Origin: a virus
Length of the DNA: 64,000 nt
IMG/VR virus record: IMGVR_UViG_3300035181_001055
Location: 62,754 to 126,753 of that record
Direction: 5' to 3' (one strand)
Of this stretch, positions 60,563 to 64,000 are shown in pieces; the stretch's first letter is position 1, and every line of letters starts with the position of its first letter. The position numbers and the translations under genes are program-made. The notes under the pieces are model-generated. The model searched no databases. It was not told the origin of the DNA and was given only the letters and a program-made list of their open reading frames with translations.

Positions 60563-61546
60563 ATGGCACATGAAATTACTATTCGCGCAGATGGCAAAGC
60601 TGAGATGGCCTTTACTGGCTCGCGCGATGCTATCTGGCACGGTCTAGGACAACAACTAGATGAAAATGCTTCGATTGAAACGTGGAAGGTGCAGGCTGGT
60701 TTGGATTGGGAAGTTCACGAATCGTCAGTCCTGTTCCAGTCTTTCAAAGACGGGAAAATTGTTTCCGATGTTTTCCCGAATAAGAAAGCTCTGATTCGTT
60801 CTGATACCAAGGCTCCGCTTTCCATCGTTGGAAGCGATTTCAAAATTGTTCAGCCTGGAGAAGTTCTTGAGTTCTTCCGTGATTTGGTTTCGCTTCATGG
60901 GATGAAACTCTCGACTGCGGGATCTCTTTTCGGTGGAACTCGTTTTTGGGCTTTGGCTGAAACTGGTAAGTCCGAAAATGTAGTGACAGGAGACAATGTC
61001 AAGGGTCATCTTCTGCTAACTACTGCGGTAGATGGGACTCTCGCAACGACTGCTAAATTTGTTTCAACTCGAGTGGTTTGCAACAATACTCTTACCATCG
61101 CAATGGCCGAAGGTTCAAAGAACATGGTTCGCAAAACTCATAAGAAGACTTGGGATCCAGCCTCAGTTAAGATCGATCTCGGTCTAATCGATGCGTCCTG
61201 GAATAAATTCATGGAAAATCTTCGCAAGCTGTCTAACGTCGAAATGACAGACAAGAAGGTTCGCGAGTTGTACCAAGACGAGTTCTTCAATCCTAAATTG
61301 GCTCCTGACGAGCAGGGTTGGGGTGCAGTCAAACGAGTCAACGATTTGATGAATCTGTATAGGAATGGCACTGGCTCTGAAATGACGTATGGCACTGCAT
61401 GGGGCGCTCTGAATGCGGTCACCGAGATGTTCACACACGGTTCAGGCAAACGAGATCCTTCACATCAGTTCTGGGATTCGTATTACGGAAATTCCGATAA
61501 TGTCAAATCTAACATCATGGATAAATTGCTTGACATGGTGGAATAA
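60563..61546 (+). CDS. DUF932-family phage/plasmid protein
   Basis: WHGLG, AGLDWEV, TAGSL.GG.RFW, RVVCNNTL and WGALNAVTE motifs. Confidence 0.85.
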   Translation: MAHEITIRADGKAEMAFTGSRDAIWHGLGQQLDENASIETWKVQAGLDWEVHESSVLFQSFKDGKIVSDVFPNKKALIRSDTKAPLSIVGSDFKIVQPGEVLEFFRDLVSLHGMKLSTAGSLFGGTRFWALAETGKSENVVTGDNVKGHLLLTTAVDGTLATTAKFVSTRVVCNNTLTIAMAEGSKNMVRKTHKKTWDPASVKIDLGLIDASWNKFMENLRKLSNVEMTDKKVRELYQDEFFNPKLAPDEQGWGAVKRVNDLMNLYRNGTGSEMTYGTAWGALNAVTEMFTHGSGKRDPSHQFWDSYYGNSDNVKSNIMDKLLDMVE

Positions 61547-61573
61547 GAACGTCCATTTTCTGAGAGGAGAGAA

Positions 61574-61795
61574 ATGGGATATACCCTACTAGATGCCGCA
61601 AAAGATGCCGTGACGGGTAACTTGAGCATGGCGGACGCAGACAAGCAAGAGCGACGTCTATCAATTTGTCGCGAATGCGAATATCTGGAGAAGTCTCATC
61701 TCGATAGGGCTGCGGGCACTTGTAAACAATGCGGTTGTTTCATGACAATGAAAGTGAAATTCAACAATTCAACTTGCCCGCTAGGCAAGTGGTAA
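61574..61795 (+). CDS. Small Cys-rich protein
   Basis: C-x2-C...C-x2-CGC...CPLGKW. Confidence 0.75.
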   Translation: MGYTLLDAAKDAVTGNLSMADADKQERRLSICRECEYLEKSHLDRAAGTCKQCGCFMTMKVKFNNSTCPLGKW

Positions 61796-61799
61796 AAAT

Positions 61800-61874
61800 G
61801 GGGCTATGGTGTAACTGGGAACATTGCGCTCTTGCACGGCGTAGTCGTCGGTTCGAATCCGACTAGCTCCACCA
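61800..61874 (+). tRNA. tRNA-Ala(UGC)
   Basis: Cloverleaf folded by hand; G3-U70 pair; encoded CCA. Confidence 0.92.
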
Positions 61875-61878
61875 AATT

Positions 61879-61953
61879 GCATCCTTAGCTCAGTGGTAGA
61901 GCATCTCCCTTACAAGGAGAGGGTCCGCGGCTCGATACCGTGAGGATGCACCA
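61879..61953 (+). tRNA. tRNA-Val(UAC)
   Basis: Cloverleaf; T-loop reads CUCGAUA; encoded CCA. Confidence 0.9.
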
Positions 61954-61962
61954 AAAAATCGG

Positions 61963-61991
61963 TTGACATCTTGCTCGAAGTGATATATAAT
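61963..61991 (+). promoter_or_regulatory. Consensus sigma70 promoter for the tRNA/tmRNA cluster
   Basis: TTGACA-17 nt-TATAAT. Confidence 0.9.
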
Positions 61992-62004
61992 ACAAAGACA
62001 ATGA

Positions 62005-62079
62005 GGCTCCAAAGTGTTCATGGACGCACGCATGCCTGTCACGCATGAAGAAGGGGATCGTTACCCCTTGGAGCCGCCA
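62005..62079 (+). tRNA. tRNA-Asp(GUC)
   Basis: Cloverleaf; A8 and T-loop AUCGUUA; encoded CCA. Confidence 0.88.
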
Positions 62080-62083
62080 GCAT

Positions 62084-62167
62084 GCCCTGGTGATGGAATG
62101 GTAGACATTGCGGCCTTAGAAGCCGCTGCTGAAAAGCGTGGGGGTTCGAGTCCCTCCCAGGGCACCA
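62084..62167 (+). tRNA. tRNA-Leu(UAG)
   Basis: Cloverleaf with variable arm; encoded CCA. Confidence 0.92.
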
Positions 62168-62188
62168 TTTTACAATGTAAAATTTGAA

Positions 62189-62277
62189 GGAGAGCGGGCA
62201 GGGCGGTAATGCAGCGGATTGCTAATCCGTGATCCATGAAAATGGGTCGCTGGGTTCGATTCCCAGGCTCTCCGCCA
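62189..62277 (+). tRNA. tRNA-Ser(GCU)
   Basis: Cloverleaf with long variable arm; G73; encoded CCA. Confidence 0.92.
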
Positions 62278-62293
62278 ATTTGACGAGGAGTGT

Positions 62294-62464
62294 ATGACAG
62301 CGAAAAATGATATCACTGGCGATTTGATAAAGAGCCGTTATAGCAATGAAGCGTATGCTGTTGGATATGAAAGGATTTTCGGCAATAAAAACAAAGCCGA
62401 GAACCCTGAAAGTGAAGCTGAAGAAACTAGTGAGGTGAAAGATGAAGAAAAACGCAGGTCTTGA
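62294..62464 (+). CDS. Small hypothetical protein (56 aa, absent from the ORF track)
   Basis: GAGGAG RBS; MTAKNDITGDLIKSRYSNEAYAVGYERIFG... Confidence 0.7.
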   Translation: MTAKNDITGDLIKSRYSNEAYAVGYERIFGNKNKAENPESEAEETSEVKDEEKRRS

Positions 62465-62768
62465 TAACTTCGAAGCGCGGCTCGCTAAAGCAGACGAATT
62501 TTTTAAGGAAAAGGGACTGAGAATCAAGCATGTGCGTGATATCTACGGCAGCGGCGGCATCACTGTAGTATATCGTCGTCAGAAAAAGAATTCTTTCATT
62601 GAGCTTTCGACTGCTATTTGCAGCAAGAAAGATCAGTACGATAAGAAAATCGGACGCATTCTAGCTACCGAGAGTTTCGAGAGAGGTGAAGTGATTCGAG
62701 TTCCGCTTCTTCGCGGATTCAATTCGGCGAATATGATTTCGATGATGTTCGGTAATTTGGTTTGCTAA
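62442..62768 (+). CDS. Hypothetical protein
   Basis: GAGGTG RBS; TAICSKKDQYDKKIGR motif. Confidence 0.7.
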   Translation: MKKNAGLDNFEARLAKADEFFKEKGLRIKHVRDIYGSGGITVVYRRQKKNSFIELSTAICSKKDQYDKKIGRILATESFERGEVIRVPLLRGFNSANMISMMFGNLVC

Positions 62769-62778
62769 ATATGTGAAA

Positions 62779-63041
62779 TGGCTGTAAACTCGGCTGAAGA
62801 AAGTGCGATGGACGGCGGTTCGACTCCGCCCAGCTCCACCAAAAGAATAAATGCTTAGGTAGTGTTCTTTTGAAGGGGCTGCAAAGGGTTCGACGTCGCA
62901 TCGAGTATGAAGCTTGGGCAGCTCGACAGAAAAGTCGTTAAAACTAAACCAAAGTAAACGCAAACGATGGAGTTTACGCATTGGCGGCCTAAATAACCGC
63001 CTAGGGTTTCGGTGGGTTTCCTCGTAACAGAATAACCCACC
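62779..63041 (+). ncRNA. ssrA: Two-piece (circularly permuted) tmRNA
   Basis: T-arm, acceptor 3' strand and CCA (62814-62841) precede the 5' strand GGGGCUG (62875); tag ORF at 62960-62992 encodes ANDGVYALAA*; outer ends are approximate. Confidence 0.88.
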
Positions 63042-63052
63042 ACTGATTACCA

Positions 63053-63142
63053 GGAGGTGTGGCCGAGTGGTTTAAGGCAACGGGCTTGAACCCCGTCAGA
63101 GGCGAAAGCCTCTCGTGAGTTCGAATCTCACCGCCTCCGCCA
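63053..63142 (+). tRNA. tRNA-Ser(UGA)
   Basis: Cloverleaf with long variable arm; encoded CCA. Confidence 0.93.
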
Positions 63143-63158
63143 AAATTTGTTATAATAT

Positions 63159-63232
63159 GCGGATGTAGTTCAATGGTAGAACCTTAGCCTTCCACGCTAA
63201 TGACGCGGGTTCGATTCCCGCTATCCGCTCCA
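63159..63232 (+). tRNA. tRNA-Gly(UCC)
   Basis: Cloverleaf; U73; encoded CCA. Confidence 0.93.
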
Positions 63233-63241
63233 AAAATTCAA

Positions 63242-63315
63242 GGGGGACTGATGTAATGGCAGCATAGCGATCTCCAAAATCGTTTGACGAGGTTCGAGTC
63301 CTTGGTCCCCTGCCA
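63242..63315 (+). tRNA. tRNA-Trp(CCA)
   Basis: Cloverleaf; encoded CCA. Confidence 0.9.
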
Positions 63316-63340
63316 TAATAGAGACAGAATAGGATGAATT

Positions 63341-63943
63341 ATGACAGAAAATGAGATTATTGAAATTCAGACATCTGAAAATTTTTTCATCAATATCCCA
63401 CTGAATCGTCAGCATACATTTTACCTGAGCGGCGAAATCAAATCGCCAGAAAACTATACTAAGTGGTTTCATGCCATTCGAAATGCAAGTGAAAATGATA
63501 TTGTGATGATTCACATCAATAGTTCAGGCGGCGATGCCTCGACTGCAATTCAATTCATGCGCGTTATGACCGAGACGCCTGCGACTGTTGTTGCTAGTGT
63601 AGAAGGGAATTGCATGAGCGCCGCAACTATGGTGTTTCTTGCTGCCGATTCTTATCAAATCAGCGAACATTCTTGCTTTATGTTCCACAACTATAGTGGA
63701 ATGAGCATGGGCAAGGGTGGAGAGATGTATGACAATATCGTTTTCGAGAGAAAGTGGAGCGAGAAAATGTTGAAGAGCATCTACAAAGATTTCTTGACAG
63801 AGAAAGAAATTAACGATATACTCAACAATCGCGATATTTGGTTGGATAGCGACGAAGTTATTAAGCGCCTTGAGCGTCGAGCTAAGAAAATGGCGAAGAA
63901 AGGTGCTGCGAATAAGGAGAAAATTGATGAGCGTGGAAATTGA
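63341..63943 (+). CDS. clpP: ClpP-like serine protease
   Basis: HINSSGG, CMSAA (catalytic Ser), FMFH (His) and RDIWL (Asp) motifs. Confidence 0.88.
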   Translation: MTENEIIEIQTSENFFINIPLNRQHTFYLSGEIKSPENYTKWFHAIRNASENDIVMIHINSSGGDASTAIQFMRVMTETPATVVASVEGNCMSAATMVFLAADSYQISEHSCFMFHNYSGMSMGKGGEMYDNIVFERKWSEKMLKSIYKDFLTEKEINDILNNRDIWLDSDEVIKRLERRAKKMAKKGAANKEKIDERGN

Positions 63944-64000
63944 ATCTGTTTATAATTTTACTGCGAAAGTGATAAATGTTGTTGATGGCGATACGATCGA
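63927..64000 (+). CDS. Thermonuclease (SNase)-like protein, 3'-truncated
   Basis: AAGGAG RBS; ...AKVINVVDGDTI. Confidence 0.65.
   Translation, partial: MSVEIESVYNFTAKVINVVDGDTI

What the first reader, a model, noticed from the sequence alone, without database searches (positions are those of the whole stretch)
62779..63041. Phage-encoded circularly permuted (two-piece) tmRNA
Seen in sequence: the 3' half of a tRNA-like domain (GAC, T-arm GGCGG-TTCGACT-CCGCC, CAGCTCC-A-CCA ending at 62841) lies upstream of the 5' half (GGGGCTG at 62875). The two halves pair into a 7-bp acceptor stem with the G3-U70 alanine determinant. The 33-nt spacer self-pairs (AAAGAATA/TGTTCTTT), as expected of an excised intervening segment. 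Cross-piece helices form (CGTCGCAT/GTGCGATG and CGAGT/ACTCG). A resume codon at 62960 encodes ANDGVYALAA-stop. Established: two-piece tmRNAs occur in Alphaproteobacteria, some Betaproteobacteria and picocyanobacteria, and phage tmRNAs are uncommon. Inference: the phage brings its own ribosome-rescue RNA in permuted form, either captured from such a host or permuted independently. tRNA scanners would miss or miscall it.
Basis: partly seen in the sequence, partly recalled or inferred. Interest (0 to 1): 0.85.

Follow-up and report, generated by a model that had tools for sequence, protein, structure and literature searches.

The report
Phage two-piece tmRNA gene
An uncultured T4-like phage carries a real "back-to-front" (two-piece) gene for tmRNA, the RNA that frees stalled ribosomes, but such genes are already published for many phages, including cultured relatives of this one, so it is an ordinary new member.

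Summary
ARAGORN calls a permuted tmRNA with tag ANDGVYALAA. Rfam gives 128 bits for both beta_tmRNA (cut-off 84) and tmRNA_permuted (cut-off 47). Across 11 homologues, four helices are 98% paired, and 14 of 24 pairs show compensatory changes. The G3-U70 alanine determinant never varies, and the tag codons differ from relatives mostly by synonymous changes.

The novelty claim fails. Buchholz et al. 2022 (PMC9004378) counted 53 two-piece tmRNAs in phage genomes, including Stenotrophomonas phages Moby, Mendera and YB07. These are distant kin of this phage, and I confirmed the gene in Moby. This scan has also noted phage two-piece tmRNAs on much other DNA.

The gene is of the betaproteobacterial type. 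Its nearest relatives are other phage copies (72-73% identity), while the ten bacterial copies compared are at most 60% identical. It looks inherited within a phage lineage, not freshly captured and not independently permuted.

It sits in a tRNA array and abuts tRNA-Ser, with no SmpB, integrase or ClpX-type (AAA_2) ATPase gene in the record. It therefore probably depends on host RNase P, AlaRS and SmpB. The adjacent ClpP-like gene is not generally linked to tmRNA: 3 of 60 related loci have one nearby.

The parts
61963..61991 (+). Perfect sigma-70-type promoter (TTGACA, 17 nt, TATAAT) inside the tRNA array. It is a candidate promoter for a long transcript running through the tmRNA.
   Evidence: 12 of 12 hexamer matches, and no + strand terminator-like site anywhere in 61400-64000. 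Use of this promoter is inferred, not shown.
62764..62771 (+). GCTAAATA, a weak match (6 of 8) to the T4 late promoter TATAAATA, ending 8 nt before the acceptor piece.
   Evidence: Sequence. Four distinct related viral copies (L032, L028, L038/L050, L007) have an exact TATAAATA about 3-7 nt upstream of the equivalent point. This is weak evidence for the window itself.
62780..62841 (+). Acceptor piece (3' half of the tRNA-like domain). It holds the outer-helix strand 62780-62784, the P2a strand 62804-62810, the T-arm 62814-62830, the acceptor 3' strand 62831-62837, discriminator A 62838 and an encoded CCA 62839-62841.
   Evidence: The 5' end is taken from the start of the Rfam tmRNA_permuted match and is not mapped.
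62842..62874 (+). 33-nt intervening segment, presumably discarded during maturation.
   Evidence: It folds alone as an 8-bp hairpin. The equivalent spacer measures 0, 25-81, 127 and 335 nt in other viral copies, so it is not conserved.
62875..63041 (+). Coding piece. It holds the acceptor 5' strand 62875-62881, the P2a strand 62894-62900, the outer-helix strand 62919-62923, hairpin CGAC/GTCG 62924-62937, the tag frame, the stop-codon hairpin 62983-63001 and the 3' hairpin 63011-63041.
   Evidence: The true 3' end lies somewhere in 63041-63052 and is not mapped.
62960..62992 (+). Tag reading frame: resume codon GCA, peptide ANDGVYALAA, stop TAA in the loop of hairpin GGCGG/CCGCC.
   Evidence: Against L011 there are four synonymous codon changes and one replacement. 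Against L053 there are three synonymous changes and two replacements (alignment).
63053..63142 (+). tRNA-Ser(tga), starting 11 nt after the last tmRNA hairpin. Its RNase P site probably sets the outer limit of the coding piece's 3' end.
   Evidence: The window lacks the terminal terminator hairpin of the beta_tmRNA model (alignment). Processing is inferred.
61800..62277 (+). Upstream tRNA array: Ala, Val, Asp, Leu, Ser.
63159..63315 (+). Downstream tRNAs: Gly and Trp.

Best explanation
This is a functional betaproteobacterial-type two-piece tmRNA (ssrA) gene belonging to a large uncultured T4-like phage.

Proposed mechanism (steps beyond the sequence features are inferred):
1. The gene is transcribed with the surrounding tRNA genes.
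2. Host RNase P cuts before G62875 and before tRNA-Ser at 63053. Host nucleases trim the 33-nt spacer back to the encoded CCA at 62841.
3. The 62-nt acceptor piece and the roughly 170-nt coding piece stay joined by the acceptor stem and two further helices.
4. Host AlaRS charges the complex through G3-U70.
5. With host SmpB and EF-Tu it enters ribosomes stalled on broken messages, and translation resumes at GCA 62960.
6. The peptide ANDGVYALAA is added and marks the product for host proteases.

The likely benefit is to keep ribosomes available while messages are being degraded during infection. The gene was inherited within a phage lineage rather than taken recently from the present host.
For: Identity:
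- ARAGORN calls tmRNA* with the tag ANDGVYALAA.
- Rfam gives beta_tmRNA 128.4 bits against a cut-off of 84, and tmRNA_permuted 128.2 bits against 47. The alpha model gives 65.5 bits and the cyano model 50.8 bits.

Fold:
- Across 11 homologues, 24 pairs in 4 helices are 98.4% paired, and 14 pairs change on both sides.
- 0 of 500 shuffles reach this, and slid controls give 38-59% pairing. G3-U70 is invariant.

Tag under selection:
- Codon changes against relatives are mostly synonymous.
- Related tags keep the pattern ANDxxYALAA.

Phage context:
- The window is the last 64 kb of a 126.7-kb IMG/VR virus record. It encodes tail-fibre proteins and has no integrase.
- The record holds 14 tRNA genes.

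Dependence on the host:
- No SmpB was found in the record.

Inheritance:
- The tmRNA tree puts the window with L053 at 99/93 support.
- L053's contig is also the phage's closest kin by the neighbouring ClpP-like gene, at 72-73% amino-acid identity.
- The bacterial copies form their own group (87/91) and are at most 60% identical to the window's copy.
Against: - No transcript, processing, charging or tagging data exist for this gene or, in the papers I searched, for any phage two-piece tmRNA.
- The record is only about 75% complete, so a phage SmpB cannot be excluded.
- Energy-only folding of the two pieces does not reproduce the tRNA-like domain, so the fold rests on comparative evidence.
- The middle cross-piece helix and a PK1 pseudoknot were not established.
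- The host is unknown, so compatibility with host SmpB and AlaRS is assumed.
- The tree is poorly resolved among the viral copies.
Confidence: 0.85

Rival explanations
1. The gene is a recent capture of the present host's own two-piece ssrA, so it marks the host as a two-piece betaproteobacterium.
For: The best-scoring Rfam model is the betaproteobacterial one. Two-piece tmRNAs do occur in a minority of the Burkholderiales-order genomes sampled here: 3 of 151 across the order and 10 of 26 in one family.
Against: The ten bacterial beta-type copies compared are 53-60% identical, against 72-73% for other phage copies. They form a separate group in the tree. No bacterial two-piece tmRNA turned up among the matches to the window's 25-nt T-arm/acceptor string in 185,579 species genomes, and the five matches I tested are one-piece tmRNAs. 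Kin such as Moby carry a beta-type copy although they infect Stenotrophomonas, which is not among the lineages reported to have two-piece tmRNA (my own knowledge, not tested here).
Confidence: 0.08
2. The RNA is a decoy that blocks host trans-translation, for example by soaking up SmpB, rather than a working tagger. This has been argued for the tRNA-like-domain-only RNA of mycobacteriophage DS6A.
For: A DS6A-like molecule has been shown to inhibit tmRNA strongly, perhaps by titrating SmpB (PMC4131195). The phage record encodes no SmpB of its own.
Against: The tag frame is complete and conserved as a peptide, with mostly synonymous differences between relatives. The resume-codon context and the stop-codon hairpin are retained. 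A decoy would not need these.
Confidence: 0.05
3. The tmRNA and the ClpP-like protease gene 300 nt downstream (63341-63943) form a phage-run tag-and-degrade module.
For: The ClpP-like gene (Pfam CLP_protease, E 6.1e-9; phrog_1827, E 5.9e-64) follows the tmRNA in the window. It also does so in L053/L054 (about 73% identity) and in L011 (60% identity). An earlier unchecked note of this scan reports a tmRNA beside ClpP in a T5-like phage.
Against: Of 60 viral loci encoding 54-72% identical ClpP-like proteins with up to 4 kb on each side, only 3 hold a tmRNA. Two of those are the near-identical L053/L054 contigs, and about 50 hold no tRNA or tmRNA at all. L055 keeps the ClpP-like gene without a tmRNA. 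Moby's tmRNA has no ClpP-like gene nearby. No ClpX-type ATPase (AAA_2) was found in the record. The adjacency looks like shared gene order in one small clade.
Confidence: 0.06
4. The gene is a decaying relic or an integration-site remnant with no function.
For: Temperate phages often carry ssrA fragments from integration at the host gene (PMC9004378). Close kin L055 lacks the gene, so it is dispensable.
Against: Both pieces are complete. All helices pair, and there is covariation across copies down to about 51% identity. No integrase was found. The gene lies inside a tRNA array of a T4-like, apparently virulent phage.
Confidence: 0.02

Closest known systems
Betaproteobacterial two-piece tmRNA (Rfam RF01850 beta_tmRNA; third two-piece lineage of Sharkady and Williams 2004, as cited in PMC9004378)
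   Same: Same gene order, with the acceptor piece before the coding piece. Same tRNA-like domain with G3-U70. Same cross-piece helices next to GGAC and TTCGAC. Same kind of 10-residue tag: ANDGVYALAA here, ANDE[HRN]FA[IL]AA in the bacteria. Stop codon in a hairpin loop. Full-length model match of 128 bits.
   Different: It scores far below bacterial members, which reach 169-331 bits. The acceptor stem is GGGGCTG/CAGCTCC, where the main bacterial family has GGGGGTG/CACCTCC. The full CCA is encoded here and in all 20 viral copies parsed, but 7 of 9 bacterial copies parsed lack the final A. The window has no terminal terminator hairpin and a tRNA gene follows instead. It lies in a phage tRNA array.
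Published phage two-piece tmRNAs: OM43 phage Melnitz, pelagiphages HTVC008M and Mosig, T4-like cyanophages, Caulobacter phiCbK-like phages, and Stenotrophomonas phages Moby, Mendera and YB07 (Buchholz et al. 2022, PMC9004378, Table S1)
   Same: A permuted ssrA in a large tailed phage, often T4-like and often among tRNA genes. Moby's copy lies between tRNA-Leu and tRNA-Thr and also matches beta_tmRNA, at 94.6 bits.
   Different: Melnitz's copy groups with alphaproteobacterial ssrA and is linked to a glutamine riboswitch. This copy is beta-type, and Rfam found no riboswitch in the window. It is only about 55% identical to Moby's copy.
Caulobacter two-piece tmRNA (Keiler, Shapiro and Williams 2000, as cited in PMC9004378)
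   Same: One precursor is cut into an acceptor RNA and a coding RNA that stay base-paired and act in tagging. This is the only mechanism model available for the present gene.
   Different: It belongs to the alpha-type lineage, and the alpha model gives only 65.5 bits here. It is a chromosomal gene with a cognate SmpB. Function has been shown for Caulobacter but not for this gene.
One-piece tmRNAs of mycobacteriophages (Bxz1, Cali, Catera and others) and Bacillus phage G (Hudson et al. 2014, PMC4131195)
   Same: A phage-borne ribosome-rescue RNA without a phage SmpB reported.
   Different: Those have the standard, unpermuted gene form.

Membership tests
Two-piece (circularly permuted) tmRNA | Score at or above the curated cut-off of the family covariance models | tested here: met
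   RF04321 gives 128.2 bits against a cut-off of 47. RF01850 gives 128.4 bits against 84.
Two-piece (circularly permuted) tmRNA | Permuted gene order: the 3' half of the tRNA-like domain, ending in CCA, lies upstream of the 5' acceptor strand | tested here: met
   CCA ends at 62841 and GGGGCTG starts at 62875. ARAGORN flags the gene as tmRNA*.
Two-piece (circularly permuted) tmRNA | Alanine-type acceptor: 7-bp stem, G3-U70, discriminator A, T-arm with a GGTTCGA-type loop | tested here: met
   All are present. G3-U70 is invariant in 10 of 10 aligned copies, and the acceptor and T stems are 100% paired with compensatory changes.
Two-piece (circularly permuted) tmRNA | Helices that hold the two pieces together, supported by covariation | tested here: met
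   P2a helix: 7 pairs, 6 with changes on both sides. Outer helix: 5 pairs, 4 with changes on both sides. The middle helix is unresolved.
Two-piece (circularly permuted) tmRNA | Tag reading frame that starts at an alanine resume codon and ends in a hydrophobic ALAA-type tail | tested here: met
   GCA at 62960, peptide ANDGVYALAA, stop at 62990. Differences from relatives are mostly synonymous.
Two-piece (circularly permuted) tmRNA | Pseudoknot PK1 upstream of the resume codon | tested here: inconclusive
   The hairpin CGAC/GTCG at 62924-62937 matches the model hairpin. I did not establish the second stem of a pseudoknot.
Two-piece (circularly permuted) tmRNA | Maturation into two RNAs, alanylation, SmpB-dependent tagging | not testable with these tools
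   This needs RNA and protein experiments. No SmpB gene was found in the 75%-complete record.
Betaproteobacterial subtype (RF01850) as opposed to the alpha or cyano subtype | Best and full-length match to the beta model, including the lineage-specific regions outside the tRNA-like domain | tested here: met
   Beta gives 128.4 bits over model positions 1-331. Alpha gives 65.5 bits. Cyano gives 50.8 bits, below its cut-off, and only over the tRNA-like domain. The 3' terminator hairpin of the model is missing.

The most novel reading that the evidence does not exclude
Beta-type two-piece tmRNAs may be primarily a phage-borne gene family, with the sporadic bacterial carriers having acquired theirs from phages. 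In my sample these carriers were one family in which 10 of 26 genomes had it, plus a lone 2-Mb genome in a family where the other 25 sampled lacked it. The viral copies are much more diverse than the bacterial ones, and in the tree the bacterial copies form one group set within an unresolved spread of viral copies.
Probability: 0.08. Interest if true: 0.6.

Novelty: new member of a known kind. Interest (0 to 1): 0.15.

Why it matters
It matters little beyond annotation. Phage two-piece tmRNAs are published, and this scan has noted them many times.

The useful points are practical:
- Such genes are easily left unannotated or covered by spurious small ORFs. Moby's deposited record is an example, and three minus-strand ORFs of 60-106 codons overlap this gene.
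- The copy adds a well-supported member to a diverse set of beta-type viral tmRNAs.
- That set could serve to study how a two-piece tmRNA is cut out of a tRNA transcript, and why phages whose hosts are not known to use the two-piece form carry it.

No one has yet shown what a phage tmRNA does during infection. That open question is not made more testable by this uncultured example than by cultured phages such as Moby.

Tried and rejected
1. DNA search of 50,697 phage records with the tmRNA region and with 24 kb of the window. Only tRNA-Ser matched, so no near relative is in that collection.
2. Host inference from the 25-nt T-arm/acceptor string. It matched 12 bacterial genomes, and all five that I tested carry one-piece tmRNAs, so it says nothing about the host.
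3. Energy-only folding of the two pieces and of the precursor. It recovers the acceptor stem and spacer hairpin in the precursor but not the T-arm, and the dimer fold is wrong, so I did not use it as evidence.
4. A dedicated sigma-70 promoter directly upstream of the gene. None was found in the window, although L053 and the bacterial consensus have one. Only a weak late-promoter-like GCTAAATA is present.
5. The tag-and-degrade link with the ClpP-like gene. I tested it on 60 related loci and rejected it as a general association.
6. Prophage or attachment-site remnant. No integrase was found and the gene is complete.
7. The supplementary files held for the 2025 tmRNA database paper contained no phage listing. 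Sharkady and Williams 2004 is not held.
8. The tree could not resolve the order of the viral copies or the direction of any transfer between phage and bacterium.

Full report
**1. The observation**

- T-arm: GGCGG, loop TTCGACT, CCGCC, spanning 62814-62830.
- Acceptor 3' strand CAGCTCC at 62831-62837, discriminator A at 62838, CCA ending at 62841.
- A 33-nt spacer at 62842-62874.
- GGGGCTG at 62875-62881, which pairs with the 3' strand into a 7-bp stem with G3-U70.
- The helix TGCGATG (62804-62810) with CGTCGCA (62894-62900).
- A frame from GCA at 62960 to TAA at 62990 that reads ANDGVYALAA.

ARAGORN reports a permuted tmRNA (tmRNA*) at 62749-63083 with exactly this tag. Rfam reports beta_tmRNA at 128.4 bits (cut-off 84, E 8.4e-39) over 62725-63049. 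It also reports tmRNA_permuted at 128.2 bits (cut-off 47, E 9.6e-25) over 62780-62992. The claim that scanners would miss the gene is not.

**2. Subtype**

The alpha model scores 65.5 bits. The cyano model scores 50.8 bits, below its cut-off, and only over the tRNA-like domain. The gene is therefore of the betaproteobacterial type. It lacks the terminal terminator hairpin of that model. Instead, tRNA-Ser starts 11 nt after the last tmRNA hairpin.

**3. Context**

The window is the last 64 kb of a 126,753-base IMG/VR virus record, classed as linear and about 75% complete.
- It encodes tail-fibre-like proteins and other phage families.
- Its 1327-residue ADP-ribosyltransferase-like protein is 36-45% identical to proteins of T4-like Stenotrophomonas phages (Moby, Mendera, YB07), Xanthomonas phages BUDD and X1, and Ralstonia phage RSP15.
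- Earlier notes of this scan on the same genome also call it T4-like.
- The record has 14 tRNA genes, no integrase, no SmpB and no ClpX-type AAA_2 ATPase.

The tmRNA lies inside a tRNA array. Ala, Val, Asp, Leu and Ser lie upstream, and Ser, Gly and Trp downstream. A perfect TTGACA-17-TATAAT promoter sits at 61963-61991, and no + strand terminator-like site is found in 61400-64000.

**4. Is it a working gene?**

I aligned 11 homologues: the window, nine other viral copies including Moby, and one bacterial copy. I then counted pairs for four helices.
- 98.4% of cells are paired.
- 14 of 24 pairs change on both sides.
- 0 of 500 shuffles reach any of the five measures.
- Sliding the partner by 1-3 columns drops pairing to 38-59%.
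- G3-U70 is invariant.

The helices that hold the two pieces together carry most of the compensatory changes: 6 of 7 pairs in P2a and 4 of 5 in the outer helix.

The tag behaves as coding sequence. Against L011 (ANDSVYALAA) there are four synonymous codon changes and one replacement. Against L053 (ANDAVYELAA) there are three synonymous changes and two replacements. Tags across viral beta-type copies keep the pattern ANDxxYALAA or ANDxxFALAA.

Energy-only folding does not reproduce the tRNA-like domain. The fold therefore rests on comparison. I did not resolve the middle cross-piece helix or a PK1 pseudoknot.

**5. How it probably works** (inferred from the Caulobacter model cited in PMC9004378 and from the anatomy)

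- The gene is transcribed with the tRNAs.
- Host RNase P cuts before G62875 and before tRNA-Ser at 63053.
- The spacer is trimmed back to the encoded CCA.
- The two pieces stay paired. Host AlaRS charges the complex, and host SmpB and EF-Tu deliver it to stalled ribosomes.
- The tag directs the product to host proteases.

The spacer is clearly dispensable. It measures 0 nt in L053/L054, 25-81 nt in most copies, 127 nt in BUDD and 335 nt in L007. In four distinct related copies an exact T4-late-type TATAAATA lies about 3-7 nt upstream of the acceptor piece. L053 has a sigma-70-type promoter there. This suggests that the acceptor piece's 5' end is at or near a transcription start in those phages. 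The window has only GCTAAATA at that place, which is weak.

**6. Comparison with what is known**

Buchholz et al. 2022 (PMC9004378) described the two-piece tmRNA of OM43 phage Melnitz and surveyed 18,146 phage genomes. They found 402 genomes with tmRNA genes and 133 unique genes, 53 of them two-piece by ARAGORN and mostly from aquatic phages. Their Table S1 marks these phages as permuted:
- Moby, Mendera and YB07
- Caulobacter phiCbK-like phages
- Bordetella phage PHB04
- Citrobacter phages Mordin and Moogle
- Sphingobium phage Lacusarx
- T4-like cyanophages
- pelagiphages

I confirmed the gene in Moby at 68083-68349: tmRNA_permuted 118.6 bits and beta_tmRNA 94.6 bits, between tRNA-Leu and tRNA-Thr. 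I also confirmed it in BUDD at 77.5 bits. The Moby record does not annotate it and places a hypothetical CDS on it. The Moby and Mendera announcements mention tmRNA only in the ARAGORN reference.

In IMG/VR a simple pattern for 'CCA, 15-45 nt, GGGGCTG' found 29 more viral contigs, 14 of them with a beta_tmRNA match over the cut-off. This scan's own index holds many earlier notes on phage two-piece tmRNAs on other DNA.

**7. Origin**

Bacterial beta-type copies are a minority in the genomes I sampled.
- 3 of 151 genomes sampled across the Burkholderiales-level order have one. This tally includes the unpublished genome G030, which had only a sub-threshold match and supports no other claim here.
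- 10 of 26 genomes in one family have one.
- 1 of 26 in another family has one. That single genome has no one-piece tmRNA.

The bacterial copies score 169-331 bits, against 87-160 for the viral ones.

Over about 210 aligned positions the window's copy is 72-73% identical to L053, L032 and L011. It is 53-60% identical to the ten bacterial copies.

In the tree the window pairs with L053 (99/93) and Moby pairs with BUDD (100/94). The bacterial copies form one group (87/91), and the rest is unresolved. L053's contig is also the closest kin by the neighbouring ClpP-like gene. The tmRNA has therefore travelled with the phage lineage. Neither a recent capture nor an independent permutation is supported. 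The direction of older transfers cannot be told from these data.

**8. The ClpP-like neighbour**

ORF 63341-63943 is a ClpP-family protein. It follows the tmRNA in the window, in L053/L054 and in L011.

I tested whether this is a general link. Of 60 viral loci encoding 54-72% identical proteins, only three hold a tmRNA within the flanks, and two of those are the L053/L054 contigs. Most hold no tRNA genes at all. L055 has the protease gene but no tmRNA. Moby's tmRNA has no such neighbour. The adjacency is best read as shared gene order in a small clade.

**9. Verdict**

This is a real, probably functional, beta-type two-piece tmRNA gene in a T4-like phage. It is a new member of a published kind, and interest is low.

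Noticed in passing
L053:5697-5819 (same in L054, L104, L105): In the closest related phage contigs the permuted tmRNA has no intervening segment. The CCA is followed directly by GGGGCTG, so one RNase P cut would create both mature ends. A bacterial copy (L102) has a 4-nt spacer.
   Followed up: partly
L066, L067, L096-L101 (bacterial beta-type tmRNAs) versus all viral copies: All 20 viral permuted copies parsed encode the full CCA. In 7 of 9 bacterial beta-type copies parsed the acceptor end reads CCC or CCT, so the final A must be added after transcription.
   Followed up: partly
L064:2584-2850 (Stenotrophomonas phage Moby, MN095772.1 68083-68349): Moby's permuted tmRNA is not annotated in the deposited record. 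A 37-codon 'hypothetical protein' CDS (CPT_Moby_106) lies on its coding piece.
   Followed up: yes
window 63341-63943: A 200-residue ClpP-family protein gene (phrog_1827) lies 25 nt after tRNA-Trp. At least 399 viral contigs encode relatives, and most have no tmRNA or tRNA nearby. Its role beside a T4-type head protease is unknown.
   Followed up: partly
L030:5905-6154, L044:11650-11899, L048:9505-9587: 83-nt matches to the standard tmRNA model cover only its two ends, so they look like a tRNA-like domain with no coding part. In two of the three contigs they lie about 100 nt from a Pistol ribozyme.
   Followed up: no
L008:9839-10067: A HEARO RNA (HNH endonuclease-associated RNA, 90.6 bits) lies directly downstream of a viral permuted tmRNA with tag ANDSNYNMAAAA.
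   Followed up: no
L046:3274-3728: A viral beta-type tmRNA is called by ARAGORN with an unusually long 28-residue tag. It is followed at once by a tRNA with a CTA anticodon, a possible amber suppressor.
   Followed up: no
L007:1945-2468 and L061:1501-1830: The spacers between the two tmRNA pieces are 335 nt (L007) and 127 nt (Xanthomonas phage BUDD), long enough to hold inserted genes. Their content was not examined.
   Followed up: no
L068 (genome G069): A 2.0-Mb bacterial genome has a beta-type two-piece tmRNA as its only tmRNA, while none of 25 other sampled genomes of its family has one. It branches at the base of the bacterial group.
   Followed up: partly
window 62442-62768: A 108-codon ORF ends 11 nt before the acceptor piece. 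It has no Pfam or PHROG match and no relative in the other tmRNA-bearing loci.
   Followed up: partly
whole record (G000:C1 420-743 and 124553-126065): tRNA genes lie at both ends of the linear contig, as if one tRNA region had been split by the assembly break.
   Followed up: no
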